From NCBI GenBank assembly GCA_048213135.1, contig PS015367.1, positions 33,231 through 73,036 of the forward strand: a stretch of DNA of 39,806 nucleotides. Direction: 5' to 3'. Both the position numbers and the translations under genes were made by a program. Of the stretch, positions 9,997 to 38,356 are shown piece after piece. The stretch is from Reclinomonas americana ATCC 50394. Lineage: Eukaryota. Within the stretch, counting starts at the first letter, position 1. Each line of letters starts with the position of its first letter. The notes beneath the pieces were generated by a model, which was not told where the DNA came from, made no database searches, and saw nothing but the letters and a program-made list of their open reading frames with translations.

Positions 9997-16283
<6,287 letters not shown>

Positions 16284-16447
16284 GAGATCTTCTGTGCCTG
16301 GCAAATCAGCGCTCGAAGACGCACGCGCCACAATTGTTGAGATGCTGCTCGTATCTGGGCCAGCAGTCAGGGGTGGGAGGGTAGGGGGACGCAATAAATG
16401 TGTCCCGCAGGGCGTGGTGACTTCACCAACTTCTATTCCGTCACAGA
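16284..16447. promoter_or_regulatory. Putative compact bidirectional promoter between the ankyrin-kinase gene (-) and MED8 (+)
   Basis: Inferred only from the divergent start codons at 16283 (-) and 16448 (+). No core motif identified. Confidence 0.45.
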
Positions 16448-16549: not shown

Positions 16550-17140
16550 GTGTTTGACAGGAACCCGCTGGACCTGTGCTGCAAAAGGCAATCACTCTGC
16601 GTGATCGACTGCGTAACAAACTCGACTTGCGACAATGGTGTGTGACAGAGAGGCAAAGAGAGAGAGAGAGAGAGAGGAGGGAGGGAGAGGCAAAGAGAGA
16701 GAAGGGGGAGAGAGGAATGAGTGAGAGAGACAAGTGATGCATGCGAGGCAAAAGGTTGCACACACACACACACACACACTCTTTCTCTCTCTCTCTNNNN
16801 NNNNNNNNNNNNNNNNNNNNNNNNNNNNNNNNNNNNNNNNNNNNNNNNNNNNNNNNNNNNNNNNNNNNNNNNNNNNNNNNNNNNNNNNNNNNNNNNNNNN
16901 NNNNNNNNNNNNNNNNNNNNNNNNNNNNNNNNNNNNNNNNNNNNNNNNNNNNNNNNNNNNNNNNNNNNNNNNNNNNNNNNNNNNNNNNNNNNNNNNNNNN
17001 NNNNNNNNNNNNNNNNNNNNNNNNNNNNNNNNNNNNNNNNNNNNNNNNNNNNNNNNNNNNNNNNNNNNNNNNNNNNNNNNNNNNNNNNNNNNNNNNNNNN
17101 NNNNNNNNNNNNNNNNNNNNNNNNNNNNNNNNNNNNNNNN

Positions 17141-17197
<57 letters not shown>

Positions 17198-20100
17198 GTG
17201 TGTATGTGTGTGCGTGTTCTCACCATCTTATTTACTTGCTGCGACGTTGCGTTCTCTTCTTCTTCTTCTGCCTTCTTCTTCTTCCTCTGCATCCTTTCTC
17301 CCTCCTTGCGCTCACCCTTTCTCACCCTCTCTCTCTCCCTCCCTCCTCTCTCCTCTCTCTTTCTCCACAGGCCCGCATTCCTCGAGGTCTTTCGCGTTCT
17401 CCAATCCGAGCTGCAAGACCTGCAGGAGACCAACGTGGATCACCTGACGTTTCTCGCCGTGCACCCGATGAACTCGCATCCACCCGGGCACCCCAATGCG
17501 CAGCAGCCTGGGGGGCAGTTGGATAGAGGTGGGTGGAGAGGGGGAAGGAGGGAGAAGGGAGGGAGAAGGAGAAGGATGGTAGGGATAGTGTGTGGAAGGG
17601 AATAGGAGGGGAGGTAGAGAGATATACAGATAGATAGAGAGAGACAAAGAGACACAGAGTATCCTTCTCCCTCGCAAACTCTCTCTCTCTCTCTCTCCTC
17701 AGATTATTCTTCGTGCGCGCTGTCGTGTGATAGACGTGCTGTTGTGTGTGAGAGAGAAAGACAGTGAGTGTGTTAGAGAGAGAGAGACAAAGCAAGAGAA
17801 AGAGAGACTTGAAGAGAGACTGAGAGAGAGAGGGAGAGGGAGAGATATTGAGATGAAGAGCGAGAGAGAGTGAAATCACAAGTACAACTGAGCACGCTGA
17901 GAGTTAGAGAAGGACCCGAGAGGCAGAGAAAGTGTGAGGCAAGCAAACACAGTGGGGCAGACGGCGGAGGGAGAGTAAAGCAATGGGGAGGTGAAGTGTG
18001 CGCGGTTTGACTGAGTGAGCAAGAATCACGCGGGGTAAAACGAGAGGAAAAAGGGAGAACTGGACTGAGAAAACAGAGAAGAACACGTCTACGAGCCACG
18101 AAAGCTCAGAAACGGCCAGGCGACGAGTGCAGAGTGCCGGGAGAGAGAGAAGAGAGGGGAGAAGAGATGGAGAGGGAGAGAGGAGGAGGAGGAGGAGGAG
18201 GAGGAGAGAGAGAGAGAGTGAGATTGAGAATGAGGAATGGACAAGCAGAAGTGCAAGTGAGAGAGAGGGGTAGGTCGTTGAGCTTCGCCCAGACAATGAG
18301 ATGTGCAAGTGAGAATCCAGAAGGGAACGAAGAGGCAGCAATACTGAGTGCAAAGCAGTTGCAGTTGGGCGACGGTGATTTCCCATGCCTGTCTTCTCCG
18401 TCTCTGTTCTTGCCTTCTGCGCACTCTTCTGTTCACGGCTGTCGCTTCGTTCTTGCTCTATCGTCTCTCGCTCTCGCTTTCCCTTGCTCTCTCTGTTGCT
18501 CTCCCGGCCTCTCTTTCTCTCCCCTTCCCAATGTTTTCCACCTCTATTGCTCCTTATTCTTCTCCTCTTTTTTCTGTTTGTTCTGTGCTCTCGCTGCATG
18601 CTTCTCTCCCTGTCGCTCACCTGTCTCGCTCGGTTCTCGACCAACCTGTTTCTCTGTCTCCTTTCCCTCGGGCCTCTCTCTCTCTCTCTNNNNNNNNNNN
18701 NNNNNNNNNNNNNNNNNNNNNNNNNNNNNNNNNNNNNNNNNNNNNNNNNNNNNNNNNNNNNNNNNNNNNNNNNNNNNNNNNNNNNNNNNNNNNNNNNNNN
18801 NNNNNNNNNNNNNNNNNNNNNNNNNNNNNNNNNNNNNNNNNNNNNNNNNNNNNNNNNNNNNNNNNNNNNNNNNNNNNNNNNNNNNNNNNNNNNNNNNNNN
18901 NNNNNNNNNNNNNNNNNNNNNNNNNNNNNNNNNNNNNNNNNNNNNNNNNNNNNNNNNNNNNNNNNNNNNNNNNNNNNNNNNNNNNNNNNNNNNNNNNNNN
19001 NNNNNNNNNNNNNNNNNNNNNNNNNNNNNNNNNNNNNNNNNNNNNNNNNNNNNNNNNNNNNNNNNNNNNNNNNNNNNNNNNNNNNNNNNNNNNNNNNNNN
19101 NNNNNNNNNNNNNNNNNNNNNNNNNNNNNNNNNNNNNNNNNNNNNNNNNNNNNNNNNNNNNNNNNNNNNNNNNNNNNNNNNNNNNNNNNNNNNTCCCTCC
19201 TCTGCATCTCCTAGAGTGGTTCTGACACCCCACACTTGCTACTCCCTTCCCTTTTCCCTCACCCATTTTCTCCACCTTCCCGCAGTCCCCGAACTTCTCC
19301 TCTCCCGCCTCCTCCCCGAGATGGAGAAGGACATGGACGCCCTGCGCGACCGCGGCGCCACCCACCCCATGATGTCAGAGGTAAGCCTCCATGCCGGCGC
19401 AGAGTGGGCGTCATACTTTGCGGGTTGAGTTTACGGAGTTGGGGGTATAACTCAGTGGTAGAGTGTTCGCTTTGCATGCGAAAGGTCCGGCGTTCGAACC
19501 GCCGTACCTCCACATTCTTTTTTTATTTTTTATTTATTTTTTCTGAGTGTTCATTCAGCGCTTCTCTCTTGTTCCTCTCACTGTGGTAGGCCGAAAGTGG
19601 TGATTTGATTTTTCTGTGTCCGATTGTGGACCCAGTATTGTGATCAGTCCAATTTTCTGTGTCTTCCTCTGCCTTCACCGAGACGAGAGCCCACTTCCAT
19701 TCTCACTCTCCCCCGTGCGTTCATGCCGCACACTTTGCAGCGTCCGCCCTCCTCTCCACTTTCGTTCTCTTGCTTCCTTGGTGCATTCATTTTGTCGAGC
19801 TCTGACTCTTTCCTTCTCTCGCTCTCCTCGCGCATTCACTCTGGCCCTGATCCTCTCTCCATCTGCCCTCTCCCCTTCTCCACTTGCATTCATGTCTCGA
19901 GCTCTCTGCACATCTCCCCGCGTTTTCGACTCTCTTATCTCGCTCTCCGTCGGTGCGCTGTCTCTCCCCCTTGTCTCCTTCACAGCACTCTCTTGTTTCT
20001 TTCTCACGTCTCTCTCTCTCCCTTCCCCCTTTTCCCCCACCTCTCCCCTTCTCGCAGGACCGCCGCCACACCTTCTCCGAAAAATGCCGCCAACTCGAAA

Positions 20101-21255: not shown

Positions 21256-22252
21256 NNNNNNNNNNNNNNNNNNNNNNNNNNNNNNNNNNNNNNNNNNNNN
21301 NNNNNNNNNNNNNNNNNNNNNNNNNNNNNNNNNNNNNNNNNCCTTCCCCTGCATCATGCGTCGCTGCACCGCATGTTTCTCCTATCGCAGCGATCGCTCT
21401 TCTCCTTGTACCTGTCCCCGCTGTCTCCCTTCTCCTCCCCGCTCCCCTTCTCACTCCCTTTCCTGACTTTTCTTCATCACCAGCTGGTCGCGGCCGCGGT
21501 GCTACCAAGAAGACCAAGGCGGGTCGTGGAGGAGATGCGCTGCAGCCGCCGCCGCCGATGCCGCCGGCCATGGTGCCGGGCATGCCGCAAGTGGCGCCTC
21601 CAGTCATGCCGCCCGCTGGTGGGGGCATGCCGATGGTGCGTGGTGGGATGATTGTGTGAGGTTACAGTTCATGAGCATCATTTTTTCTCGCAGCAGCAGC
21701 AGGCTGGTCGAGGCAAGCGCATTCCACCGGCGGCTGCCGCGGTGCCGGCGCAGGATGCAGCGGCCTACAACTATATGGTGCACCAGAATCAGATGGTGAG
21801 CGTGCAGAGGGGAAAAAGGGAAAGGGTGGGGGAAGGAGAAGGGGAAAAGCAGAAGGAGATTCGGCGGTCTTTCTTCGGCCCACTGACTCTCCCTTCTCCC
21901 TCCGCAGAACGCCGGTTCCGCCGCCGCCGCCGCCACCGCTCCCGTTCCTCCCCCCGCCATGCCACCCGCCGGCTACGGCTACCCGCAACCAAACCCCTAC
22001 GGCAACACGTACGCCGTGGCGCCTGGCGCACCACCCGTCGGCGCCGCCCCTCCCGGCTACTATGGCATGCCCGCACAGGCTGTGCAGGGACGCGCCGTCA
22101 CCGCCGTCACCATGCCGCAGCACCCGCAGCCGCCGCCGCCACAACAGCAGCAGCCGCTTAATCAGCCACCACAGCAGCTGCCGCCGCCTCCGCCGCCACC
22201 GCCACCGCCTCCACCGGCAGCGGATTTCAATGTGGAGGATGTGTTCAGTTAA
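16448..22252 (+). CDS. MED8: Mediator of RNA polymerase II transcription subunit 8 with a long Pro/Gln-rich C-terminal extension
   Basis: Exons 16448-16453, 16561-16637, 17371-17528, 19286-19380, 20058-20708, 20772-20814, 21484-21635, 21694-21795 and 21908-22252 are phase-consistent. The protein has PVLQKAITLRDRL...WPAFLEVFRVLQSEL...FLAVHP...VPELLLSRLLPEME...LLETVLMGRG, matching the MED8 pattern as I recall it from plant MED8 (W..L..F, VVHP, LP.MLSSKLLPEME, L..V..G.G). N-gaps could hide exons. Confidence 0.8.
19441..19512 (+). tRNA. trnA-UGC: tRNA-Ala (anticodon UGC), located in a MED8 intron
   Basis: Full cloverleaf: acceptor stem GGGGGTA/TACCTCC with the Ala identity pair G3:U70 and discriminator A; D-stem ACTC/GAGT; anticodon arm TTCGC-TT TGC AT-GCGAA; T-arm CGGCG-TTCGAAC-CGCCG. 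No intron and no encoded CCA. Confidence 0.97.
19518..19542 (+). terminator. RNA polymerase III oligo(T) terminator of tRNA-Ala
   Basis: A T7 run starts 6 nt after the tRNA 3' end and is followed by further T runs. Confidence 0.8.
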
Positions 22253-23170: not shown

Positions 23171-26100
23171 CGTCGACGTCGACGACGTTCTCTCCCCCTC
23201 TTCTTCCTCTTCTTTGACTGCTTCTGCTGTTCGCGCTCTACGAAGCAACAGTGCAGTGTCGTATGGTTGCCCGGGGCTTCCTCCACGCTTTGTTGCTCGA
23301 CTGGAGCAGTTGGTGAAAGGTGAGAATGAGAGAGAGAGAATGAGAGAGAAAGAGTGTTAGCTCTCTCTGTCTCTCTGTTTGTTTGAGTGTCTATCAGTTG
23401 CTCTCTCTTCTCTTGCTTGTCTCTCTTTCTGTGTCTCTTTCTCTGTCATTCATTCTGCTTCTCATTGTGTTCTTCTCTCTATGTCTGTCTCTCTTTCTCT
23501 CTTACCTCACAGTCTTCCTCTCTGTCTCTGTCTCTCTCTTTCTTCCTGCTTCTATTTATGTGTCTTTTGGCCTCACCTTCCCCTTTTCTGTCTCTTTCTC
23601 TGCTGCTTTCAGTCTATCTGTCTCTGTCTCTCTCCTCCACTTTCTGTCTCTTACTCCTTCCCTCAGTCTTCTTCTTCTTTGAGTCTCACTGTCTTTGTCT
23701 CTCTTCCCCCTCCCTTTCTCTCTCTTCCCCCTTTTTCTCTCTCTCTCCTCCTCTTTCTTTCTCTTCCTCCTTCCATCAGNNNNNNNNNNNNNNNNNNNNT
23801 CTTCTTCTTCTTCTTCTTCTTCTTCTTGTTCTTCTTCTTCTCTCTCTTTCATCTCCCTCTATCAGTCTCCCTGCTTCCTTCCCTCTTCTGTCTCCTTCTT
23901 TCCTCTCCTCTCCTCCCTTCATTCTTCCTTTTCTTCTTCTTCTTCTTCTTCTCTCTTTCATCTCCCTCAATCAGTCTCCCCGCTTCCTGCCCTCTTCTGT
24001 CTCCTTCATTCACTCTTCCTTTCCTCTTCTGTCACCTCTCACATTTCCTTCCATCCCTCTCCCATGCTTCTCCTCCCTCTTCCCTCTCTCTCTCTCTCTT
24101 TCATCTCCCTCTATCAGTCTCCCTGCTTCCTTCCCTCTCACCCCTCACTCCCTCCCCTCGTCCCTTCCCTCTTTTATCGTCACCCTCTTCCTTCTCTTCC
24201 TTGTCTCTCTTTCCTTCCTTCTCAGTGATTCCGCGAAGTCGACTGCGACAAGATGCTGCGCACTTGAGCGAGGCGCTCCGGCTGCGAACAGTCTCCAAGG
24301 GAGTGAACAAGGAGACGGGCGAGTTGTTGACCAGTGTGGGGTGAGTAGATGAAGAGAGGGAGAGAAGGAGAAGAACTGAAAGAGAAGAGGAGGAAGAGAG
24401 GGTGGAGCGGAAGGAGGAAGAGAAGGACAAGGAGCAGAAGAAGGAGAAGAAGATGAAGGAGGAGGAGGAGGAGAAGAAGAAGAAGAAAACGAAGAAAGAT
24501 GAAGAAGAAGAACAAGAACAAAAAGAAGAAGATGAAGAGGAGGAGGAAGGAGGAGGAGAAGAAGAAGAAGAAGAAGAAGAAGGCGAGAAGGCTTGTCTTC
24601 TTCTTCTTCTCCTTCCTCCTGCTGCATCGCCCTCAGCCCCCTCTCCTCTCCCCCTTCCTCATTTCCTCCCTTCCCCTCATCCCGCGCAGCACCCAGGACC
24701 TTCAATCTCCCACCTCCTCTTCCTCCTCCTCCTCCTCCTCTTCCGCCGCACCATCCACGCAAGCCACCGCCGCCGCCAACAGCCGCGCACGTCGCCTGCG
24801 CTTTGACGAACGCGGTGCAACCGGCGTGCCACCCATTGTGTACGGGCAGCGCGAGGCCATGGCATACGCCGTGCATCGCATGCCGGGCGTGTACGCAGTG
24901 ATGGAGCGGGTGTTTCGCGAGGTCTGGTGTGGAGGGCGATGGACTGCGTGTGGTGCGTGGCACTGATTTTTGTTGGGGTGGCAGGTGGGCCATCGTCTCG
25001 GACCGTCGTTCGTGCCGCAATCGTATCTCGACATGGGCACTGGACCAGGCACGGCAATCTGGTTCGTCCTCTCCTCGTTCTCTTCTCCGTGCTATCCTCG
25101 TCTNNNNNNNNNNNNNNNNNNNNNNNNNNNNNNNNNNNNNNNNNNNNNNNNNNNNNNNNNNNNNNNNNNNNNNNNNNNNNNNNNNNNNNNNNNNNNNNNN
25201 NNNNNNNNNNNNNNNNNNNNNNNNNNNNNNNNNNNNNNNNNNNNNNNNNNNNNNNNNNNNNNNNNNNNNNNNNNNNNNNNNNNNNNNNNNNNNNNNNNNN
25301 NNNNNATACTTAGACCTCCTCAATTCTGGCCTTCTATGTGCGCTTACGTTCTCATTCTTTGTTACACTGCTTGCCTTCCAACTCGAAAGCTCAGTTTCTC
25401 ATCCCTCATTTCACGACATCCTCGCCATCCGCCTGCACCGCAAGTCGCCCTTTTCTTTTCCCTTTGCTGTTCCTCACTTTCCCTTTCCTTCTTACTTGCC
25501 GCAGCGCCGCTGTTGAACTCTGGCCGCAAGACAAGGCCCTTCGTGAGATCCTGGCCGTCGAGCCCTCCTCGGCCATGATGGACGTCGCCTCGACAATCCT
25601 CGCCGGTGCGACTCTCCTTGCTCTCGCCTCGCTCCCCTCTTCCATCTCTCACCCATCCTCCTTCGCAGACGTCCCCGGCATTGTGTGGCGCCGCTTCCTC
25701 AACGAGAGCCTCAGTCGCCAGTTTGATCTCGTCAGCTGCGCCTACGTTCTCAGCGAGCTCTACAGCGACAAGGTCCGCGCCTCCACCGTGCAGTCGTTGT
25801 GGGAGAAGACCGGCAACGCGTTGGTGTGTGAGAAGGAGAGGAGGGGAAAGGAGAGGAAGGGAGGGGAGATCGGGGGAGAGGAGAGGAGAAGAGCATGGAG
25901 AAGAGGAGAAGAGAAGAGAACAGGAGATGAGAGGAGAGGAGGGGAGAGGAGAAAGGAGAAGAGATAGGAAGAGAGGAGAAGAGAATGGAAGAAAAGAAAA
26001 AGAAGAGAAGAGAAGAGAGGAGAGAAGAGAACAAGAGAAGAAAAGTGAAGAGGAGAGAAAGGAGAGAAGAAGAGAAGAGAAGAGATGAAGAGGAGAAAGG

Positions 26101-27167
26101 AGAAGAGATGGGGAGAGAAGAGAACGGAAGAAGAGGAGAAGAAGAAAACGGAGGATAGGAGAGAAGCGAAGAGAGGAGAAGAGCATGGAGAAGAGGAGAA
26201 GAGGAGAGAAGAAAGTAGATCTGGCTGACTGTGCACGCGTCGCAGGTGATTGTCGAACCGGGCACGCCAGTGGGCTTCAAGCACATTAGAAATGCTCGCG
26301 ACACGCTGATTGCCAGCGGCGCGCAGATTATTGCCCCAGTTGCGTGGTGGGTGATGAGGAGAGGGAGAAAGAAAGAGGAACAATGTTCGCCCTTCTTCAG
26401 TTGCTTCTCATCTCTTCTGTTGAATGAGCGTTCTGAGCTTGTCTTCTTTTCTCTCTTCGCCCCTTCATTCCTACCAATCTTCGCATGCCTCAGTCGCCCC
26501 TCGTGACTCATTATCCGCTTCTCGCTTCCATTCATCGTCTCGCATGTTCTCAATTTGGCGCGTAACGTTGCTTCACACCGTCATTCCCTTCTCTTTCCTC
26601 CTCCTCCTCCCCCTCCTTCTCTCCTCCCTCTCCTCTCCTCCTTTCCCTCATCCTTTGCCCCCGCAGTGCCCCCACTCCTCCACCTGCCCGATGCCCGGCA
26701 ACTCCTGGTGCCACTTCCTGCAACGCGCACAACGCCCGGAGCTCCAGCGCATCTCCAAACAGCACGCCACACGCGGCTTTGAGGACGAGAAATTCTCCTA
26801 CATTGTCGCCGTTCGTTCGCCCACTTCTCCCGCTCCTACTGCCGCCGAGGAGGAGAAGGAGGAGGAACCCTCTCGAGTAGTGCGCGGTCCGCGACGTCGC
26901 GGCGGGCACACGCTGCTCGATTTGTGCACACCGCGCGGCACGCTGGTGACGAGTCACGTGGTCAGTCGTTCGCAGGGACTCGAATACCGCTTTGCGCGCA
27001 AGGCGAACTGGGGCGATCGATATCCGTTCGCCGTGCCCGACAAGGTGGTGGTCGAGGAGGAGGAGGTTGAGGGCGAAGGCGGCAGTGCTGTTGTTGTGGT
27101 GGATGAAGTAGAGGAGGACGAGGAGGAAAAGCCGATGCGCAGAAATCGACGACGAGGACGCGAATAA
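23043..27167 (+). CDS. RSM22: Mitochondrial small ribosomal subunit assembly factor Rsm22 / METTL17 (methyltransferase-like)
   Basis: Exons 23043-23319, 24226-24340, 24690-24921, 24985-25061, 25505-25605, 25669-25823, 26246-26338 and 26667-27167. Motifs: AMAYAVHRMPGVYAVMERVFRE, LDMGTGPGT, FDLVSCAYVLSEL, LVIVEPGTPVGF, IIAPCPHSSTCP, WCHF, EDEKFSY, RVVRGPRRRGGHTLLDLC, YRFARKANWGD. The N-terminus MLRLLARPLHRLTTTRTFATSRR is Arg-rich and acid-free, like a mitochondrial presequence. An in-frame upstream ATG exists at 22881. Confidence 0.93.
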
Positions 27168-27361
27168 AAAGGTAAAAGTTTTGGGTGCTTGTCCGAATGT
27201 TCGGACCTAACTTCACCTTCCTTTCCTGACGAGCGCCTCATTCACAGTTGTTGTGTGAGCGAGCGGTGGTGGTGTGCGAGGGGAAATTGTCTTTTTCTTG
27301 ATTGATGCTCGAGTCACCTGCTTCCTCGTCTTTGTCGGCGTCGCCCTCACGGTCGTTGAGA

Positions 27362-30300
27362 ATGAGTGCCGCCGCTCCGCCCGCTGTGTCTCTGCGGCGA
27401 CACACAGATGCGCTGTCGCTGCTGGCGGCCCTCGCCGGGGGAGATGACTCGGACGAGCAGACACATGTAGCGACGGCCGTGGCGGCGGTGGTGGAGGCGG
27501 GAGAGCTAGCAGCAGCTGTTGTACAAGACGATGATGATGATGATGATGATGACTGTTGTGATTCAGCAGAAGCAGCGGTGGTGCCAGACGGGGGACCGGG
27601 AGGAGGGCCGGTGCGTGACAGTTGACTTGCCATTGTTGCTTCTTTGTGCTCACTTGATTGGAGCAGGATCGCGTCAGTTCCGTGTTCTTTGTCGGCACTC
27701 AGGACCAATGGTGTGGTCAGTTCGATTTTGGTGCGCCGATTGCCGAGCAGCTGCAAGGTGAGATAAAGGGAAAGGGAGGGGAAGGAGATGGAGGGGGGAA
27801 GGGGGAGGGGAGTGAGGGAGTAGATGCGTTGTGCTTGCTGAGATCTTGCGGTGAGTTCTCCTGCCTGCCGATACGGAGGCATATCTTGCACGCATCGCTA
27901 TGTGTCGAACGCCGTGATTCCTGCTCTATAGCCGAAGGATTTTTGCTTCCTATTAGTCATGTGTCGCTCTGTGCAACGTTTCTAGTCCGTGTCTGAGTTC
28001 TCGGCGAAGCATACGTCCACTTTCTGTGTTACTCTCTAGACTCTCTCGTCGACTTCTCTGCATCGAATGGTGGTTTCTGCGTTTATCTGGAGCTGTATCG
28101 CTCTTTGCTTCTCTGAGTTGTGTGAACTTGGCTTCAATGCGCTCTACGGAATACGTTGACTTCTCCCCGCATTGATCTCCTCATATTGTTCTTGCCAGAA
28201 CCTTTGTAGTATGCCTCTCCCTTTCCTTTTGTCTCCTTCATTCCATATTTCACGCTGCGTTGCTCTTCGTTCTCTCTTTATTCTTGTTTTTCGCTCCGTT
28301 TCCTCGTGTCTCTTCATTCTCTTCTTGCTTCTCTCACTCTCTCTCCTTTTTGCACTCTCATTTTCTTGCCTGTCATCCTTTCTTTTGTTTCTCCCTCACT
28401 GCGATCTTCTGATCTCGTCACATCTCTCCCTTCCATCGCTCTCTCCTTCATTGTCTCTTCCGCTTTCTTTCTTTACTTGTCCTTGTTGCCCTTCCGTAGT
28501 GCTTTGCTGTCTTGCATTCGCTGTACATCCTTTCTTTCCTCTCTGGCCAAGCGTTTGTAAATGCCATCCTTCCTTTATTTTCTCCACTCGCTCCGTATTT
28601 CACGTCCTCTTTCTTCATGGCCACTCGATTTCTTGCTTTTCTCATTTTTTCCCATTGCCTTCTCCATCCGTTTATGCCTTCCCTATTTGCAGAACGAGAC
28701 CTGATTATTGACGGCGACGGCCCTCTGTCGCACCTGCTGGAAGACGTCCTCGCACTGCAGCTGGTTCGCTCATCTCCACTCTTCTACCTTCTCTCACCGC
28801 GACTCAGTGTCGTCCGCCCGCAGAGCGACCAAATGGCCACTGGCATAGCCACCGTGTTTCGACAGCTGATGACGGGCGGCGGCAGCGGAGAGTGGCTGCA
28901 GCCGGTGCACTTTCACAGCCGTCACGAATCGCTGCACATTGATCTCCCCATGTTGCACCAGGTGCGGGGAGGAAGAGGAAGGCTGAATAGATTTTGACTG
29001 TTTCCTCGCTTGCTCACTGGCAACTGCACAGAACGAGTCGGTGGTGCCGCACCTGCAGTCGCTTGAGTCGCTGACGTTTGTGGCCAAGCTGCGACGTGTG
29101 TGCGTCAATTGCGGGGATTCGGCCACTGCCGAGGAGGTGGAGAGATGTGTACGATTCTCGCCGTGGCATCAGAAGATGGAGGTATGAATGTGGGAGCGGT
29201 TAGGACAAGGGTGCAGATGGACAACTCGTTCAGTCTGCAAGATGGTTTTGCTTTGTGCTTGCTTGTTTGCGGTGCGCTTTCTTCTCTCCATGCAACTTGC
29301 ACTCTCAGTCTCTCTCGTTTTCTCATTCGTTTTCCGTGGTGTGCCTGATTCCGTCGCAGTTGTCTCTTCTCTTGCACGACTGTTCACTCCATGCAAGTTT
29401 CACTTTCAGTCTCTCTCGTTTCTCATTCGTTTTCCGTGGTGCGCCTGGTTCCTTCACATTGTCTCTTCTCTGCAACACCTGATCATTCTGTCAATGCAAC
29501 TCTGAGTCTCTCCATTTCTCATTCGTTTTCCGTGGTGCATCTGATTCCCGTCACAGTTGTCTCTTCTCTAGGACAACTGATCTCATTATACTAGAGTCTC
29601 TTCTTTTGCAATCGTGTTTCTCCATGAAAATGCAACTCTCACTCTCAGTCTCTCCTTTCTTATTTCTACTTTCGGTGCGTCTGGTTCCAGTCACAGTTGT
29701 CTCTTCTCTTCCACGGCTGTTCACTCCATGAAACTTGCACTCTCAGTCCGAATCCTCTTTCGTTTCCGTGGTTCGTCTGGTTACCGCCACAGTCAGCTCA
29801 ATGTCTCATCTCTTCAACGGCTGTTCACTCCATGCAACTGCACCTTCATTGTCAGGCTCTCTCCTTTTTCGCATTCGTTTTCCGTGGTGTGCTGGATTCT
29901 GACACAGTTGTCTCTTCTCTTCAACACGTGATTGTTCTGTCAAATACACCTTCAGTCTCTCCGTTTCTCATTTCGTTTTCAGAGGTCGTCTGGTTCCGCC
30001 ACAGTTGTCCCTTCCCTGATCGCTCTGTCAAATGCAACTTTGTGTCTCTCCGTTTCTCATTCGATTCAAGTGCGTCTCGTTCAGTCTCTTCCACAGTTGT
30101 TCTCTCAGTTACCGGCACCCTTCAGTGTCAGTCTCTCTCCTTTCCTCATTTCCTCCATTGTGTCTCTAACTTGCATTCGTGTATTTCTTTCTTGCCTGTT
30201 TGCTGTAAGCCTTTCACATCCTGAGTTGCTCTCTCTCCTTTGTTCTACACTTGATCTCTTGCTTGCCTGATTTCTGTGCATCTTTTCACATTCCCTTGCC

Positions 30301-31281
30301 CTTTCCCGCCAGACCGCCCTCCGCTCCATTGGCATCGCAGCAGACGACGAAATCCGCGCCGTCACCTCCGTCATGCTCGCCCTCTTTGCCCTCTGCCACG
30401 AGCCATACACCCTCCACGCGGCGGCATTTCTCGGCATCAAGGATGCGGTGCGTCTCTATCCGTGACACTTGCCTCTATCCTATCTCCTCATGCGCCACCG
30501 CAGGATGTCATCTCCAACTATCTCCTCCTGCCGACGGTCCTCGTGCATCCAACCGGCTCCATCACCCTCGACCAGCACGACAAGCGTGCGCATCTCATGA
30601 AAGGTCCGTGATGGTTGACGTCCTCTCTGTTCTGTGCCAATCTCACTTTGTGTTTCGTGACAGCTCTGTACTGCGACCTCGTGTCGTGGATCATCGACCG
30701 CATGTGCAGTCAGCCACACCGATCGTCACTCGATGCATGGCAACACATCTTTGTGATTCCAGCCGCTTATGTTGCGTCCTGCGCCTCTCCCCTCTCTTCC
30801 CCGCTCTCACCTCGCCCCCACAGACCACCGCCTCCATGGCCCCGCTGGACGCCTTTGCCGCCGTGACGCTGAACGAGTTTGTGATGCAACTCAAAATCAC
30901 CGAGCACTTGCTGGTGTCGCACGAACGACTGACCGCCGAGTGCGGCGACGAGCGCGCCTCACGATGGGATCCATCGTCGTACTTGGCCGCCCGGGCCCCG
31001 ATGTTGCCACTGCAGGAGCTGCTGAGTGAGCTCAGCGAGGAGGGCGTGCTGGAGATGGGAGCGAGGTCAGTGGGTGACAAGAGGAAGGGTGGGCTTTCTG
31101 TTTTTGATGAATTTCTCCCTCCAGCTCGCCACTCCTGCGCTCGTATGCGGTAGAGCTGGCCGACTCGGACGCGGTGGTCAGTGCTGATGCTGCGCACACT
31201 CTCCGATTTCTCTTTCAGCTGGGGGAGGTGAGGAGAAGGGGAAGGGAAAGGGGAAGAGAGGGGGAAGGGGAAGAGGGGGAC

Positions 31282-31327
<46 letters not shown>

Positions 31328-34300
31328 GAACACGACGAGAGAGTGTGTAGTAGACGACGTACGTACGCGGACGGACGGACGGACGGAGGGACGGGTAGGT
31401 AGGACGAACGAACGAACGACGTAGTAGTAGTNNNNNNNNNNNNNNNNNNNNACGAGGAGAGAGAGAGAGAGAGAGAGAGAGAGGGACAAACACGCAGGAA
31501 AGCGTGTGATAGCACGTAACTGGCAGGCGCAGAGGGGCGAGTGAGCGAAACACACGGATAGATGGCGAGTTGCATAACACACTCACGGAGTAGGTAGGCA
31601 AGTTGACAGACAGCGGGGGAGAGACAGAGGGGAAAAAGTGCAGTGTATGCAAGCAAGTTGGTCTGGTGGTCTATCAGAACGAAGCGCAAGAGGCGGAGAA
31701 CTATGCACAGCAGTTGGTAGGAGAAGATGCAAAGGCATGGCAGTCTTGATAGATCGGCCATAAAGCGGGGCTTGCTGATTGTGTCGCTGGTAGTTGAGCA
31801 CAGCTCAAGCAATGCACAAGTACAGATAGGCATATTGGTTTCTGTGATAGTAAGTGCCCAGCTTGTTTTCAGTGGTCACAATCTTACGAGGCGAAGGGTC
31901 TTCTTGGCGTGTGTCATAGTTTGTGGGTATCATGTGAGGCACCAGTCGCAGTGACACGTGGTGGCAGTCGGCGGAGATCGTCGTTGTTCGCGCATGATCA
32001 GAGACGCAGTGGATCTTGCATCGTGAGCACAGAATTCCTAGTCGGCAATGTCACTGGCTGCATGAACACAAACGGGCCGTGTTTACACATGTGGCAAGTG
32101 TTCTTGCTTGCAAGCCTTGGTAGATGGTCCCATGAATGGAAGAGTGAGTAGGAGTTTGGCCAATTATCAATTTTCATTCGCAGCCAGCTTGAGAACTATA
32201 AGAGAGCTGGTCTTTGTTCCACCTCTCCGCTTTCGATCCCCTTCCCCCGAATCCACCCTCCTTCTCCTCATCTCGTCGTTTTCTGCAGCGCCGCCTGGAC
32301 TTCCTGCTCACCCACCTGGTGCCACTGGAATCGCGTGCACTCGGACTGGAGCTGCAAGCGGTGCGCGCCGCCTCGCAGAACCGTCTGGTGGCCGACGCCG
32401 TGATCAAGGCCGTGCGACCGAGTCTCGGTCCGCGCACACACTCGCCCTCGGCTCTCGCCCGTTTGCGGCTCTTCATGAACGCCGCAGAGGCCGCCCATCG
32501 TCCGCTGTGTTTAACCGTGGTGCCGCGACCGACGTCGGCGCAGTTGCGTGACAGTGACTGTCGTGAATGCCAGCATCGCTTGTTTCTCACCCACGAATGC
32601 AGGCGTGATATGCAAGAGGATCAGAGCTCGTGGAGCGTGCGCATGTTTGAGACGGTGGTCGCCGGGTACCCCTCCGTGTGTCACCCGCTGGAGGAGTTTC
32701 CGATGCCACCCATTGGCGACAGCACGGTTTGTGTGACTTAATGGTTGATGACGATTGACGCAAACTCATCTCTCTATTTTCTCTTCCACAGGACTACTTT
32801 GTGCAGCAGGGTCTCGATCGCACATCCTTCGTCATTGGCGATGAATTGGTATTCTTCTCGCCCTCGGCGTGGCGTATGTTGCAGGTCTGGTGTAGGAAGT
32901 GTACCTTGGCACTCTTCTCCGTAATATTCACTCTTCGTGCACAGGTATCACAACGGTCGGCAGTGGATTACATGCAGCAGTACCTCCGTTGCGCCGCACT
33001 CCTTGACACGCTTCTCTCGGCAAGTGGCTCACCACTTCCCCTCCCTCCCTCCCGCAGATGTCGTGCGGCTGGACGATGTCGTTGACCTGGCGAGTCGATA
33101 CGAGACAAAATTGCGGGCGCACTTCGATGTTGATCGGCACGAACCGGCCGAGCTGGCCGCCATGCTGTCGCTCTCCAAGTGGCTGTCGTCGCGGGATGCG
33201 AACTCGGATCACGATGGAGATGATGGGGATGATGGGGATGGCGAGGGGGAAGAGGAGGTTGACGGTGAGGGAGTGAGGGTGGGAGGGAAAGGGGTGAGAG
33301 GGTGATGGGAGAAGGGTGAGAGGGGAAGGGGGTGAGAAGGGAAGGGTGAATAGGGGAAGGGTGAGAGTGGAAAGAGGTGAGAGGGAAAGGGGTGAGGGGG
33401 AAGTGGGTGAGAGGGGAAGGGTGAGAGGAAGGGGTGAGGGTGATGGGGGAAGGAGTGAGAGGGGGAGGGAGAGAATGGGAGGGGTGAGAGGGAAAGGGGT
33501 GAGAGGGAAAGGGGTGAGGGGGAAGGGGGTGAGAGGGAAGGGGTGAGAATGGGAAGGGGGTGGGAGGGAAGAAGGGATGGGGGGAAGGGGGTGAGAAGGG
33601 AAGGGGGTGGGAGGGAAAGGGTGGGAGGGGAAGGGGGTGAGGAAGGAGTGGGTGAGAGGGAAGGGGGTGAAAAGGGAATGGGGTGAGAGGAAGGGAGAGA
33701 AAGGCATGATGAAAGAGAGGAAGACAGAGAAAGAGAATAGAGAGAAGAGAGAATGGGATACAAGAAAAGAGGGCAAGAAGAGAACGGGAAGGAGCGAAAA
33801 GAAATGAGAGGAAAACACACACCAGAAAGTGAGGAAGGAGAGAAGGCACGAGAATGAATGAAAGAGAGAGAGAGAGAGAGAAGAGAAAGGGAAGGAGCGA
33901 AAGGGAAGAGAGAGAAAGGAGAGGAAAAACACGCGCCAGAAAGAGAGGAAGGATAGAAGCCGCGAGAAAGAATGAAAGAAGCAGTGTGTGTGTCTGTGTT
34001 AGAGAGGAAGATTACACGGAACGAATACTTTGGAATGTGGGAGCAATGGCGATGGAAAGAACAGCGGTAGTGATGAGAGAACCAACAGGCAGTGAGACCC
34101 ACCTGGAAATGTGGTGTTTCGGAGTGGACAGAAGGCACTGAGTGCGTCACATCCGTCAATATAGAGCGCAATGCATGTGGCAAAAAAAAGCAGGTGTTCT
34201 GAGATGCAAGGGATCACAGTTGTCACTCGCATGATACACGACTCTCCTGTCTCTTTCTCTCCACACCTCTCCAACCTCTCTACCCTCATCCTCACACTCA

Positions 34301-37300
34301 TGTTCTCTCACATCTCAGTTATTCTCTTCTCCAACTGCAGGCCGCGCACAACACATTCGCGTCCGCACTACCTTCCGCGACCTGGCCGACTTGGACGCGT
34401 ATCGCTTCATTGACTCGTTGCCGCGGAAGACGCACGGCGATGATGGTTTGCGATCAACTCGCCCACTTCCTGTTGCCTGTTCTCAATTCCTCCACCACAG
34501 ATGGCTCTGTGGACTTCGACTCGGATTCAGCACGTACACCAAAGCACCGTGCTGGTGATGAGAAAGGGCACACCCGGTCGCCGTCCGAGGTGAGTCACTA
34601 CGACATGAGACCAAAGAGCCTTCCAGTCCCTCATTATTTTGGTTGTGCAGGCACGTATTGGCGCACAAGAGCGACAGACGCTGGTCGACTATGGAGTCTC
34701 CATGGATTTCATGTGGCTGCTGCTGGAGGTGTTTGATCATCAGCTCACGCCAGAGTTGCTCAGCAAGGTGCGGCAGAGTGGCGATCGTTTCTGCAGAAGC
34801 AATTCTCACGCATTCCACCCCACAGCGCACGGTTGTCGCATACTGCCGTCACGCGTATGTGGTACTGCAGGAGGAGATCACGGAGGCAAAGACAGCGAAG
34901 GTTCGCGACTTTGCGGCGCAGGTGCTGGTGTGGCGAGTGTTGCAGGTGCGTTGTGTCGTGTGGTTCAAAGACTCCTGCCAGCATATTGATGGTTGGAGTG
35001 CAGGGCCTCGAGTTTCTCACGAGGTCGAGTGGTCGTCTGCCGCTGGTCAACACGCTGGAGCGGCTGCAGGCGATGCGCGAGTCGGGGGTGAGTGGGAAGG
35101 GGAGAGGGAGATAAAGGGTTCTGCTATCGCGATAGTCGCGATCTGTCCTCTCCCAGAGGCGAAGCCTTATCGTGCAAGATCAGTCTTCTACGCGTTCGCA
35201 AGTCTTTACTTTATCACACTAGCTGTTGCTCTCGCGTCTCGCCGCTGCCAGTCCTCACGCACTCGTTTATTTTCCTCCGCCTTTTCCCTTCTCCTCTCCA
35301 TCGCTCCCGATCCTCACTCTCTCGTGTGTTCTCTTCCGCCGTGACCTCTCGCCAGTCCTCACGCACTCGTTTATTTTCCTCCGCCTTTTCCCTTCTCCTC
35401 TCCATCGCTCCCGATCCTCACGCACTCGTTTATTCTCTCCCGCCGTGACCTCTCGCGTCAGTCCTCACGCGCTCGTTTATTTTCCTCTCCATCGCTCCCT
35501 TTCGGTGTGACCCATCCCTTTCCCCTTACCCCCAGGTCATGTCACAAGCCCTTCGCCTCCTCATGGAGCTCATGCACGGCATCACCCTCGGTCCGGAGGC
35601 CGACGAAGACTTTGCGTACGAGTTGCAGGCGTTGATTTTGGCCATCACAGATCGGTGGACGCAGGAGCCGTACTACACCGACAGCAATCGGTGAGTATCT
35701 CTTCAAACTGTGCTCCCTTGACGACAGCCGTGTTGTTCACTTGGTCCGCGCAGCAATTGGATGGTGGTCCACGGCCACGTGTGGACGCTGATGCAGCTAC
35801 TGGATGGATTATTGCGTGCCACGTCAGGGCAGTCGTATGCACAACGGAATGCGTTGGCGGCGACGCAGATTGTGACCAATGTGACGAAGCGGTGAGGCGA
35901 TTCATGGAATCAGAGAGAGACAGAAGGCAGGCTCACCGTCGATGGATTGCGCAGTGAGGACGAATTGCGCGTGCTGCAGACGCAGTTTGTGCGCGCCCGT
36001 GGACACAAAGTGGAGCCCATGTTCTGTCGCGATGTGCCTGCCGTCATTCACCAGTGCATTGCGGTGCGCTTCTCCGCGCGTTGTGTGATATTAACAAGGC
36101 ACTTACCACGGCGATGTTTGGCAGTCTGAGGATCGCCTGCTGTCGTTGGCCGGTCTCAAGCTGTTCCAGAACTTTGCATACATTTTCCACGCCCATTTCC
36201 GGCCGGCTGGCACGCTGCGAGTAGTGTTTCAGGTATTGTGGCTCTGGCGACAATTCCATTTTCTATATCTCTCTTGCAGGATTGATGTGTTGCCTCGTTT
36301 GAAGCGCGTGTTGATGTTAGACCATTTTCTCACACACTGGACGCTCCATAGACGCTGTGCCAGCGAGATGCGGAGTACGCGCATGATGCCGCAGTGGCCA
36401 TCCTGGCGGCCTCGTCGCTGCGAGTGCCAAAGAACGAGCTCATGCGCCATGTGCAGGAGGTATTCGCGTCGTCAAAGTCTCTCTCAGTCTCTCTCAAACT
36501 CTCTCAGTCCTCAGTCTCTCCCAGTCTCTGATTCTCTGTCTCTCTCATTCTCTGTCAGTTTCTCTGTCTCTCTCATTCTCTCTCTCTCAGTCTCTCTCTG
36601 TCTTTCTCTCTCTCTCACAGTCTGTCTCAGTCTCTCAGTCTCTGTCAGTTTCTAAGTCTCTCAGTCTCCAAGTCTCTCGGTCTCTTATAGTTCTCTCTCA
36701 AACTCTCTCGGTCCTCAGTCTCTCCCAGTCTCTGATTCTCTGTCTCTCTCAGTCTCTCAGTCTCTCTCAGTCTCTCATTCTCAGTCAGTTTCTCGCAGTC
36801 TCTCGTTCTATCATTCTCTGTCAGTTTCTCGCAGTCTCTCGTTCTCTCATTCTCTGTCAGTTTCTCTGATTCTCTGTCTCTCTCATTCTCTCATTCTCTG
36901 TCAGTTTCTCTGTCTCTCATTCTCTCATTCTCTGTCAGTTTCTCTGTCTCTCTCAGTCTCTCAACCTCTCTCAACCTCTCTCTCAAACTCTCTCTGTCTC
37001 TCTCAGTCTATCTCAGTCTATCTCAGTCTATCTCAGTCTCTCTCAGTCTCTCAGTCTCTAACTTCACTTGTCATGGTTGCCACAGAGCGGCGGCATTCAC
37101 CTCTTCTGTCGGTGCATGTTCCACCCGATGCCCGACATGGCGGAGAAGGCGGCCGTGTTTCTTATGGGATGCTGCAAGCCGAGCCTGTCAAATCAGCAGT
37201 GGTGAGTGGCCCCGCAACACAAGGGAGGTTATCTCGGTCTCTCAACCCTTGGTGTGCCTGTCGCAGCGACGTCAACCGACGCCTGCTCCATTCGCTGCTG

Positions 37301-37801
37301 GAGGGGTGTGACAAGCGTGTGCGCGGGGCGTGGGATGAGTTTGTGGGAGAGCCGACGTTTGATAATTTGCAGGAGTTGGTGGCCGCGGTGCAGCAGCAGT
37401 CCAGGTAAAGGGGGGAACGGGGGAGGGGAAGGGAGAAGGAGAAGGAGAGGGAGAGCGCGCGAAAGAGAGAGGCAAGAATGGCAGACAAAATCGTGGATTG
37501 AAGGCAGAGTGGAAGTTGAGAGAGTGTTCGGAAGGGAGCGAATCCAGCCCGTCTCCCTTTCTCACGTACTCTCCTTTTCTCTCTCTCTCTCTCTATCTAT
37601 CTTATTTCGAGGAAGACGTTCTCTTGCAGCTGATTGAATCACTGTTTGTTGAGGAAGAGACGCAGCGTTTATCGGTGTTTCAGAGCACTCATCTTGTGCC
37701 CTCCACTTCCCAGAACTATCACCTCCACCATCAAGAGCCAGCTGGACAAGCAGCTGCGGAGCGAGTTCTTCCTGGCGCTGGAGACCGACTGGTGGCAGTG
37801 A
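27362..37801 (+). CDS. Degenerate myosin-motor-domain protein (pseudo-myosin) with an IQ-like segment and an ARM/HEAT-like tail, about 27 exons
   Basis: Phase-consistent exons from 27362 (or 27305) to TGA at 37799-37801, e.g. 27667-27757, 28693-28763, 28824-28961, 29032-29097, 30313-30447, 30504-30603, 30664-30770, 30824-31065, 31125-31227, 32289-32726, 32792-32884 ... 37714-37801. Collinear myosin-head-like blocks: ALRSIGI...AAAFLGI; RAHLMKALYCDLVSWIIDRM; LDAFAAVTLNEFVMQ; ASQNRLV; LRLFMNAAEAAHRPLCLTVVP; ETVVAGYP; GLDRTSFVIGDELVFF. Confidence in the gene is higher than in the family call. Confidence 0.75.
29290..30150. repeat. Intronic minisatellite, about 100-120-bp unit, about 7 diverged copies
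   Basis: Recurrent ctcagtctctc..tttctcattcgttttccgtggtg...cacagttgtctcttctct...ctgttcactccatgcaa. Confidence 0.85.
33265..33700 (+). repeat. G-rich intronic satellite (gggaagggggtgaga-like units), potential G-quadruplex
   Basis: Dense GGG tracts in tandem directly after the donor at 33265. Confidence 0.85.
35238..35500. repeat. Intronic tandem repeat, about 105-bp unit, about 2.5 copies
   Basis: cagtcctcacgcactcgtttattttcctccgccttttcccttctcctctccatcgctcccgatcctcac at about 35249 and 35353, partial at about 35459. Confidence 0.85.
36476..37060. repeat. Intronic degenerate simple repeat (tctctcagtc / tctctcattc / tctgtcagtt)n
   Basis: Directly visible. Confidence 0.85.
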
Positions 37802-38356
37802 AGGGGGGAGTCAGTCAGTGTATTCCTGAGTTTGTACAATCCATGCGTGTATAAAGGAGACCTGTGGACCCGCAGCGACAAGCAGCATTCACTCTACAGG
37901 ATGCTCTGCGCGACGATATAGCGACAACAACTCAATCGCCAATAAACCAGCAATGGCTGTCTTCTTGAGGCAGCAGCAGGTTTCTTGTACAAGCAGGACA
38001 TAAAACTTCACTGATCCGTACACAACAATGCAGTGATCGCCAACAAAGATCGTGCATTCTTCTAGAGGTGTGCCAAGGTAATGGTCTTGTCGCAATGTTG
38101 TGAATGACGCTTTGTTGTTGTTGTGTTATCGGTGTTGAGAAAAATCCCTATTCATGAAGAAGACTTTGTCAGCAATGACCACCAGAAGGCGTCCATCGAT
38201 CGCGTCAAGAAGAACAGTGGGGCAAGTATTGGGAAACTGTCTCCACACCACAACCATGACAGTAGCTTGCACGTCGGCTGTGCACCACACTCCTTTCACG
38301 AATCTTTCTCTCTCTCTCTCTCGTTTTCTCTCCCCGTCCTTTCCCCTTGTTGCCCT

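What the first reader, a model, noticed from the sequence alone, without database searches (positions are those of the whole stretch)
27362..37801. Pseudo-myosin: myosin head scaffold without P-loop, switch I or switch II, fused to an ARM-like tail
Seen: myosin-like blocks occur in the correct order. RAHLMKALYCDLVSWIIDRM matches RDALAKALY..LF.WIV.RIN; LDAFAAVTLNEFVMQ matches FEQFCINY.NEKLQQ; ETVVAGYP matches E..RI...GYP; FVIGDELVFF matches Y.IG.TKVFF. An IQ-like AVDYMQQYL follows. Where GESGAGKT is expected the sequence reads LIIDGDGPLSH, NxNSSRFG is absent, and DIxGFE is replaced by IFVIPAAY. The tail has ARM-like helices (SGGIHLFCRCMFHPMPDMAEKAAVFLMGCC). About 27 exons stay open and in phase, which argues against a pseudogene. 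Inference: a motor-dead scaffold protein, more degenerate than known inactive myosins such as class XVIII, with an unusual tail.
Basis: partly seen in the sequence, partly recalled or inferred. Interest (0 to 1): 0.75.

Follow-up and report, generated by a model that had tools for sequence, protein, structure and literature searches.

The report
Possible motor-dead myosin-like gene
A real, many-exon eukaryotic gene encodes a roughly 1,150-1,180-residue orphan protein with a faint, unproven resemblance to a myosin motor that has lost all its ATP-binding motifs; proteins of that kind are already known elsewhere.

Summary
An independent splice-aware model recovers a 27-29-exon + strand gene (ATG 27362, stop 37801) with strong coding signatures, so the gene is real.

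The myosin reading is only weakly supported:
- Pfam found no Myosin_head on 20 exon or ORF translations.
- A myosin-motor HMM I built from 120 true myosins scores the spliced protein at -0.8 to 2.4 bits. Pfam's cut-off for its own model is 33.3.
- That tiny score is still reached by only 0-6 per 1000-2000 composition-matched shuffles.
- hhalign aligns residues 207-302 to the upper-50K helices just before switch II, with P between 0.003 and 0.05 depending on settings.
- With that region masked, the remaining blocks on the same diagonal give z about 2.
- The N- and C-terminal parts alone give P about 0.2, and a block-order test gives rho about 0.

No P-loop, switch I or switch II is encoded in any frame of the window. 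No homologue was found in five database searches. The ARM-like tail has no profile support. The spliced protein could not be folded here.

Motor-dead myosin-like proteins already exist (Toxoplasma MyoL; fungal chitin-synthase myosin-like domains).

Verdict: about even odds between a myosin relic and a chance resemblance, of moderate interest.

The parts
27362..37801 (+). Whole gene: ATG to stop, 27-29 exons, 1145-1213 aa depending on three optional splice choices
   Evidence: DP gene model; codon-position GC 67/42/73% and best frame in 25 of 27 exons
27362..27577 (+). Exon 1, residues 1-72: Ala/Asp-rich low-complexity N-terminus with a poly-Asp run
   Evidence: coding score +23.3 in frame
27703..27757 (+). 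Exon 2, residues 73-90
28693..28763 (+).
   Evidence: P-loop placement not reproduced by my alignments
28824..28961 (+). Exon 4, residues 115-160; no switch I motif
29032..29181 (+). Exon 5, residues 161-210
30313..30447 (+). Exon 6 (TALRSIGIAADDEIRAVTSVMLALFALCHEPY...): start of the best-supported myosin-like stretch (residues 207-302)
   Evidence: read directly; hhalign 94-column alignment
30504..30603 (+). Exon 7 (ends ...DKRAHLMK): middle of the myosin-like stretch
30664..30770 (+). Exon 8 (LYCDLVSWIIDRM...IFVIPAAY): anchor helix, then a hydrophobic strand where switch II would be. The alternative donor at 30753 drops VIPAAY
   Evidence: best HMM block, 22.3 bits; same 14-residue spacing to the strand as in bryophyte myosin P0101; extension coding score +2.5
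30824..31065 (+). Exon 9, 81 aa (LDAFAAVTLNEFVMQ...HLLVSHERLTAE...): would be the post-switch-II and relay region
   Evidence: no homologue found; no myosin in PDB
31125..31227 (+). Exon 10
31432..31451 (.). 20-N assembly gap inside intron 10; could hide sequence
31721..31849 (+). Exon 11 (weak coding score, least certain internal exon)
   Evidence: +4.6
32289..32506 (+). Exon 12 (…AVIKAVRPS…ALARLRLFMNAAEAAHRP)
   Evidence: 0.35 bits per codon
32507..32602 (+). 96-nt in-frame, stop-free segment: probable intron (GTGTTT…CAG) with a non-coding-like codon score
   Evidence: -2.1 bits over 31 codons, against 0.35 per codon in the flanks
32603..32726 (+). Exon 13 (…SVRMFETVVAGYPSVCHPLEEF…): GYP and EEF blocks
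   Evidence: AGYP 11.5 bits, EEF 6.3 bits, same diagonal
32792..32884 (+). Exon 14 (…LDRTSFVIGDELVFFSPSAWRMLQ); the alternative donor at 32874 shortens it
   Evidence: 14.1 bits against the end-of-motor columns; GYP-to-G spacing is 34 in both
32945..33023 (+). Optional exon 15 with IQ-like AVDYMQQYLRC; doubtful because the next intron would be only 34 nt
   Evidence: (+4.6 in frame)
33058..33264 (+). Exon 16: helical, then an Asp/Gly/Glu-rich acidic linker
34341..34589 (+). Exons 17-18 (34341-34445, 34501-34589): charged, probably disordered linker
34651..37801 (+). Exons 19-29: tail of about 390 aa, Leu/Ala-rich. Exons: 34651-34767, 34826-34945, 35004-35087, 35536-35690, 35754-35891, 35955-35998, 36099-36220, 36352-36459, 37086-37201, 37267-37387, 37742-37801
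   Evidence: no Pfam family on tail ORFs or exons at E<=10 except DUF6238 at E=0.027

Best explanation
The gene encodes a lineage-specific protein whose first 630 or so residues are a heavily eroded relic of a myosin motor domain. It keeps parts of the helical upper-50K scaffold, the strand where switch II used to be, and the GYP and G-x-x-x-V-F-F end of the motor. It has lost the Walker A lysine, switch I and switch II, and probably also the N-terminal 100 or so residues of the motor. It therefore cannot bind or hydrolyse ATP as a myosin does. It would act, if at all like its ancestors, as a static scaffold or tether, as shown for Toxoplasma MyoL, with an acidic linker and a helical tail as the interaction part.

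Shown: the gene is real, open and spliced in phase, and the catalytic motifs are absent. Inferred: myosin ancestry (weak statistics only), the fold, and any scaffold function.
For: The gene is real:
- Gene-model score is 154.9, against 50.6 on the - strand and 8-15 in shuffles.
- Codon periodicity is clear, and the predicted frame is best in 25 of 27 exons.

Similarity to myosin:
- The best local match of the whole protein to a motor HMM built from 120 true myosins is the helix before switch II.
- The full-sequence HMMER score is reached by few shuffles. Motor HMM on m2: 0 of 1000 global and 1 of 1000 window shuffles. Motor HMM on m6: 5 and 5 per 1000. Bryophyte-only HMM: 0-6 and 1 per 2000.
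- hhalign aligns residues 207-302 to template 202-299 (94 columns, net indel 2) with P=0.0041-0.0044 in all six gene-model variants. On the head alone P=0.0027; the reversed sequence gives P=0.66, and 0 of 113 window shuffles exceed 20.8 against the real 33.5.
- hhalign P-values are roughly calibrated on 50 natural non-motor proteins. One of 50 reaches <=0.0041, and that one is a P-loop ORF from a locus selected by the P-loop pattern. Five of 50 reach <=0.05.
- With the anchor, or the whole 207-302 region, masked, a chain confined to the anchor's diagonal still gives z=1.3-2.6, with 1-20 of 200 shuffles reaching it. That chain contains AGYP, EEF, LDRTSFVIGDELVFF and the IQ-like block at near-constant diagonal.
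- The pairwise alignment to bryophyte myosin P0101 runs over 170 residues. It has identical 14-residue spacing from the helix to the IFVIP/ISILD strand, and HLL-VSHERLTAE aligns with HLFKLEQEEYTQE.

Motifs absent.
Against: - Pfam gives no Myosin_head hit on 20 ORF or exon translations at E<=10.
- The local HMM score is -0.8 to 2.4 bits, far below any family threshold.
- hhalign's own probability is only 8-9.5%.
- The hhalign result depends on settings. With -M 50, or with the 102 non-plant sequences only, it shrinks to 21-22 columns with P=0.03-0.05.
- N-terminal and C-terminal sub-queries against the matching motor parts give P=0.24 and 0.21-0.22.
- With residues 207-302 deleted, the HMMER score is reached by 61-69 of 1000 shuffles.
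- Unbanded chain alignments give z as low as 0.6.
- Best-match positions of the 12-20 most conserved myosin blocks are not collinear: Spearman rho is -0.05 to 0.16.
- Thirteen of 42 natural AT-rich viral ORFs reach the same HMMER score. This control is biased, because six of them were selected for a P-loop.
- Three exon translations hit no myosin in the PDB.
- No homologue exists from which to build a family profile.
Confidence: 0.45

Rival explanations
1. It is an unrelated, fast-evolving, lineage-specific and largely alpha-helical protein. The myosin-like blocks are chance matches of amphipathic helices and short hydrophobic strings, picked out by eye.
For: - No conventional significance anywhere: Pfam, local HMM -0.8 to 2.4 bits, hhalign probability 8-9.5%.
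- The signal outside residues 207-302 is marginal.
- The block-order test is null.
- Chain alignment z is 0.6-3.2 depending on penalties.
- The language-model 'recognition' values of two exons (1332 and 1577) are below what 91 in 100 proteins of known families reach.
- No homologues at all.
Against: - Composition-matched shuffles and the reversed sequence almost never reach the real scores.
- The 94-column hit has a net indel of only 2.
- A second, independent set of blocks falls on the same diagonal with the same spacings as in myosins.
Confidence: 0.42
2. [quoted passage not shown]
For: - The long introns 27758-28692 and 29182-30312 lie where those exons would be.
- There is an assembly gap at 31432-31451.
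- No RNA evidence was available.
Against: - None of 952 ORFs (>=20 aa, all six frames, whole window) scores above -0.1 bits against the motor HMM.
- Regex scans find no switch I or II, and the only Walker-A-like strings fall outside exons at chance frequency.
- The gap lies downstream of where those motifs belong.
- The conserved blocks that are present are themselves far diverged.
Confidence: 0.04
3. It is a decaying pseudogene of a former myosin, no longer translated.
For: Catalytic motifs are lost. No homologues were detected. One internal exon (31721-31849) and the two frame-test failures have weak coding scores.
Against: - About 3.5 kb of coding sequence is open across 27-29 exons with all junctions GT-AG and in phase.
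- Strong codon-position GC periodicity (67/42/73%) and CDS GC of 61% against 51% in introns would not persist in a long-dead gene as diverged as this.
Confidence: 0.06

Closest known systems
Toxoplasma gondii MyoL (TGME49_291020), a 'myosin-like' protein of the preconoidal rings
   Same: [quoted passage not shown] It is judged a non-functional motor and acts as a structural tether; its head is dispensable, while the neck and tail carry localisation and function (bioRxiv 10.64898/2026.01.06.697858: abstract, section 7 and passages read; PMC12819142: passages read).
   Different: MyoL is 2,484 aa, with a 500-aa N-terminal extension, four IQ motifs and an RCC1 beta-propeller tail, and it has orthologues across Apicomplexa. 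The window's protein is about 1,150-1,180 aa, with at most one doubtful IQ-like motif, a helical tail with no RCC1 and no detectable orthologues. No sequence comparison with MyoL could be run here. Three exon translations hit no PDB chain named as a myosin. I did not check whether the PDB copy holds the MyoL entry cited in that preprint.
Myosin motor-like domains of fungal chitin synthases lacking the motifs (e.g. Magnaporthe oryzae Chs5; 'class-17B' in Kollmar's classification)
   Same: [quoted passage not shown] Class-17B is called divergent in PMC5583752 (passage read).
   Different: Those domains are fused to a chitin synthase and are still recognised as myosin-like by ordinary sequence methods. 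Here there is no enzyme fusion, and the similarity is below ordinary detection.
Bryophyte myosins, two of them named myosin VIII by their sources (P0069, P0112; also P0101, P0077 and others)
   Same: They are the top 11 of 120 true myosins in a pairwise phmmer against the spliced protein, all aligned at the same helix. The bryophyte-only profile gives the best hhalign hit (P=0.0034, 93 columns).
   Different: E-values are 0.1-0.5 even for a database of 120. Those myosins have intact P-loop and switch motifs. The preference may reflect shared amino-acid composition rather than descent.
Class XVIII myosins
   Same: Recalled, not tested here: myosins with very low ATPase activity that are thought to act structurally.
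   Different: Recalled: class XVIII keeps recognisable nucleotide-binding motifs and scores as Myosin_head. This protein does not.

Membership tests
Myosin superfamily (Pfam PF00063 Myosin_head) | Profile match at or above the family's gathering score (33.3 bits) | tested here: not met
   Pfam gives no hit at E<=10 on 20 ORF or exon translations. The spliced protein could only be tested against my own motor HMMs built from 120 and 18 true myosins, and scored -0.8 to 2.4 bits. As a positive control, the giant-virus myosins score 348-380 bits in Pfam.
Myosin superfamily | P-loop / Walker A (GESGAGKT) | tested here: not met
   No G-x4-GK[ST] in any exon; the 3 matches in six frames of the window are intronic or intergenic. 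No ORF matches the P-loop columns of the HMM.
Myosin superfamily | Switch I (N-x-N-S-S-R-F-G) | tested here: not met
   0 matches to [NS]SSR[FY]; the single N-x-N-[SA]-S match is on the - strand.
Myosin superfamily | Switch II (D-I-x-G-F-E) | tested here: not met
   0 matches. The aligned position reads IFVIPAAY, with Pro in place of the Asp.
Myosin superfamily | Motor-domain fold (seven-stranded core, upper and lower 50K, SH1 helix, converter) | not testable with these tools
The one contiguous 146-aa ORF folded alone gave mean pLDDT 48.5, which is unusable.
Myosin superfamily | Collinear similarity along the motor beyond one block | tested here: inconclusive
   For: hhalign 94 columns at P=0.003-0.004; masked-band chains z=1.3-2.6. 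Against: sub-queries at P about 0.2; block order rho about 0; unbanded chain z=0.6-3.2.
Myosin superfamily | IQ light-chain-binding motif after the converter | tested here: inconclusive
   AVDYMQQYLRC scores 10 bits on the first IQ columns at the expected place. However, it lacks the Gly and the second basic residue, and its exon requires a 34-nt intron.
   No ARM or HEAT hit at E<=10 on the tail ORFs and exons scanned. Exon fragments are short, so this is weak evidence.

The most novel reading that the evidence does not exclude
This would be an orphan 'ghost myosin': a translated gene, under selection, whose motor domain has eroded beyond the reach of Pfam. It has lost the P-loop, switch I, switch II and the N-terminal subdomain, yet keeps the upper-50K helices, the switch-II strand and the converter-end blocks in register. 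It is fused to a new acidic linker and helical tail. That would make it a more extreme end-point of motor-to-scaffold conversion than MyoL or the fungal chitin-synthase myosin-like domains.
Probability: 0.4. Interest if true: 0.55.

Novelty: new variant of a known kind. Interest (0 to 1): 0.35.

Why it matters
If the myosin ancestry holds, this would be another independent case of a cytoskeletal motor turned into a static scaffold. It would also be so eroded that profile databases miss it. That matters for counting myosins in genomes and for understanding which parts of the motor fold survive once catalysis is lost. If the ancestry does not hold, this is an ordinary lineage-specific orphan gene, and the finding mainly shows how easily collinear 'motif blocks' can be read into a helical protein.

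Tried and rejected
- **RNA evidence.** No RNA holder was listed for window 27800-37780, so read laying was not possible.
- **Whole genome.** None is held.
- **Homologue searches, all blank.**
  - Word-indexed search of the 81-aa exon: 104 candidates, none at E<=0.01.
  - Word-indexed search of the 146-aa ORF: 2419 candidates, none at E<=1.
  - Full HMMER scan of 1.84 billion representatives with the 81-aa exon: 0 at E<=0.001. In hindsight the 146-aa ORF would have been the stronger query for that single job.
  - Two metagenome scans: 250 and 599 pattern matches, none confirmed.
  - ESM Atlas, twice: no usable hit.
  - Earlier findings of this scan, three look-ups: nothing.
- **PDB phmmer of three exons.** Only chance hits: MarR E=0.15, histamine H3 receptor E=1.9, TRIM30 E=0.67.
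- **AlphaFold2 of the 146-aa ORF alone.** pLDDT 48.5, so it was not sent to fold search.
- **First gene model.** It ran into the upstream Rsm22 gene and used micro-exons, and was replaced.
- **Natural-protein HMMER control from the viral loci.** It was compositionally biased and partly selected for P-loops, so it carries little weight.
- **Tail peptide as a MyTH4 core.** I considered by eye whether HLFCRC...FLMGCCKPS is a MyTH4 core. Pfam shows no MyTH4 on that exon, so I rejected it.
- **Not done: complex prediction with exons as chains.** That is not what the tool is for.
- **Supplements.** The supplementary tables of the MyoL papers (orthologue tables) were not seen and could bear on whether a related protein is known.


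Full report
**What is in the sequence.**
I read the key junctions directly.

I built a splice-aware dynamic-programming model using codon log-odds plus simple GT and AG scores. The first run ran into the upstream gene. Restricted to 27200-38100, it gives 27 GT-AG exons from ATG 27362 to the stop at 37801, encoding 1177 aa.

Left free to choose its own start, the model picks the same gene. It scores 154.9, against 50.6 for the best model on the opposite strand and 8.0-15.3 for ten window-shuffled copies.

I also tested the exons with a codon table trained only on other genes of the window:
- The predicted frame is the best of three in 25 of 27 exons.
- GC by codon position is 67/42/73%.
- CDS GC is 61%, against 51% in the introns.

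So the gene is real and open.

Three splice choices remain open:
- The in-frame 96-nt segment 32507-32602 has a non-coding-like codon score and a good acceptor, so it is probably an intron.
- Exon 8 may end at 30752 or at 30770.
- The IQ-like exon 32945-33023 has a modest coding score but needs a 34-nt intron. The other 27 introns are 53 nt or longer: 15 are 53-70 nt and 8 are 354-1131 nt.

A 20-N gap lies in intron 10. The upstream gene is an Rsm22 methyltransferase that ends at 27167.

**Are the catalytic motifs really missing?**
Yes. Regex scans of all six frames find no switch I or switch II in any exon. The only three Walker-A-like strings lie outside exons, at roughly chance frequency by my own estimate.

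I built a myosin-motor HMM and searched it with all filters off against all 952 stop-to-stop ORFs of at least 20 aa in the window. Nothing scores above -0.1 bits (with the full-length HMM only low-complexity tail matches appear). So the long introns hide no intact P-loop or switch exon.

**Is it a myosin head?**
Pfam finds no Myosin_head on 20 ORF or exon translations at E<=10. The spliced protein cannot be handed to the remote tools, so I brought true myosins into the session instead:
- A P-loop DNA pattern found giant-virus myosins in IMG/VR (Pfam 348-380 bits).
- One of them retrieved 120 diverse myosins.
- I aligned these and turned them into HMMs locally.

Against the motor-only HMM, the spliced protein scores -0.8 bits. 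This is far below any family threshold.

It is nevertheless unusual for a sequence of this composition:
- Model m2: 0 of 1000 global and 1 of 1000 window-30 shuffles reach it.
- Reader-like model m6: 5 and 5 per 1000.
- Full-length HMM: 1 and 2 per 1000.
- Bryophyte-only HMM, real score 2.4 bits: 0-6 and 1 per 2000.

hhalign extends the match to 94 columns, aligning residues 207-302 to template 202-299:
- P=0.0041-0.0044 in all six model variants, and P=0.0034 against the bryophyte subset.
- On the head alone P=0.0027. The reversed sequence gives P=0.66. None of 113 window shuffles exceeds 20.8, against the real 33.5.
- On 50 natural non-motor proteins the P-values look roughly honest. One reaches <=0.0041, and it is a P-loop ORF from a locus I had selected by the P-loop pattern. 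Five reach <=0.05.
- The result depends on settings. With another match-column rule, or with the 102 non-plant myosins only, the hit shrinks to 21-22 columns at P=0.03-0.05.
- hhalign's own probability is 8-9.5%.

**Is there signal beyond that one region?**
Results are mixed. In favour:
- Chain alignments confined to the anchor's diagonal, with the anchor or all of 207-302 masked, give z=1.3-2.6, with 1-20 of 200 shuffles reaching the real score.
The GYP-to-G spacing is 34 in both sequences.
- A pairwise alignment to a bryophyte myosin runs over 170 residues. The helix-to-strand spacing is an identical 14 residues (IFVIP against ISILD, with Pro replacing the switch II Asp). It also pairs HLL-VSHERLTAE with HLFKLEQEEYTQE.

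Against:
- N- and C-terminal sub-queries against the matching motor parts give P=0.24 and 0.21-0.22.
- Deleting 207-302 leaves a HMMER score reached by 61-69 of 1000 shuffles.
- Unbanded Gotoh and jump-chain alignments give z from 0.6 to 4.4, depending on penalties.
- The best-match positions of the 12-20 most conserved myosin blocks are not in order: rho is -0.05 to 0.16. That test is dominated by the very motifs that are missing.

**Relatives and structure.**
No homologue was found by any route. No myosin appears in PDB searches with three exons. AlphaFold2 on the one long contiguous ORF gave pLDDT 48.5. The tail has no ARM, HEAT or other Pfam match.

**Comparison with what is known.**
Motor-dead myosin-like proteins are not new.
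- Toxoplasma MyoL has a head-like domain with a highly divergent ATP site and actin interface. It acts as a tether of the preconoidal rings through its neck and RCC1 tail (bioRxiv 10.64898/2026.01.06.697858: abstract, section 7 and passages read; PMC12819142: passages read).
- PMC5583752 (passages read) notes very divergent and orphan myosins.

The window's protein differs in size, tail and the depth of its divergence. It could not be compared directly with these proteins.

**Verdict.**
The near-equal rival is a chance resemblance in an orphan helical protein. The decisive tests are cDNA, a fold of the spliced protein, and a profile built from orthologues. None of these could be run here.

Noticed in passing
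window 25314-27167 (+): The upstream neighbour is an Rsm22-type mitochondrial ribosomal methyltransferase gene (Pfam PF09243, 102.2 bits on the last ORF, 22.2 bits on an earlier one). Its stop at 27167 sets the 5' limit of the gene under study.
   Followed up: partly
window 12442-16300 (-): A tandem array of four to five similar, apparently intronless ankyrin-repeat genes of about 200 aa each. Two of them were scanned and give Ank_2 at about 76 bits.
   Followed up: partly
window 9997-10476 (-): An ORF with a protein-kinase C-lobe fragment (Pkinase 20.2 bits, below the cut-off). By recall its ...YIDP...DVYAFG..LLQLLTGR motif resembles IRAK, Pelle or receptor-like kinases.
   Followed up: no
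window 27578-37741, introns of the gene: Intron lengths are sharply bimodal in model m6. Fifteen of 28 are 53-70 nt, and eight are 354-1131 nt and full of CT, GA and CA microsatellites. The others are 34, 96, 100, 125 and 131 nt.
   Followed up: partly
window 31616-31639 (+): A Walker-A-like string, GERQRGKS, lies in a short intronic ORF just after the 20-N gap. Three such strings occur in six frames of the window, which is about chance level by my own estimate.
   Followed up: yes
window 16797-17140, 18690-19193, 21256-21341, 23780-23799, 25104-25305, 31432-31451: Six runs of N (1176 bases in all). The assembly is a gapped draft, so gene content near the gaps is uncertain.
   Followed up: no
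L004 7717-10377, L008 1256-3850, L014 1778-4471; also L007 and L009: IMG/VR contigs, several of them labelled giant-virus MAGs, carry full myosin genes. Pfam Myosin_head scores 348-380 bits for the three scanned; two more score 483-709 bits on my local HMM. The other nine loci matched the P-loop pattern through unrelated P-loop proteins.
   Followed up: partly
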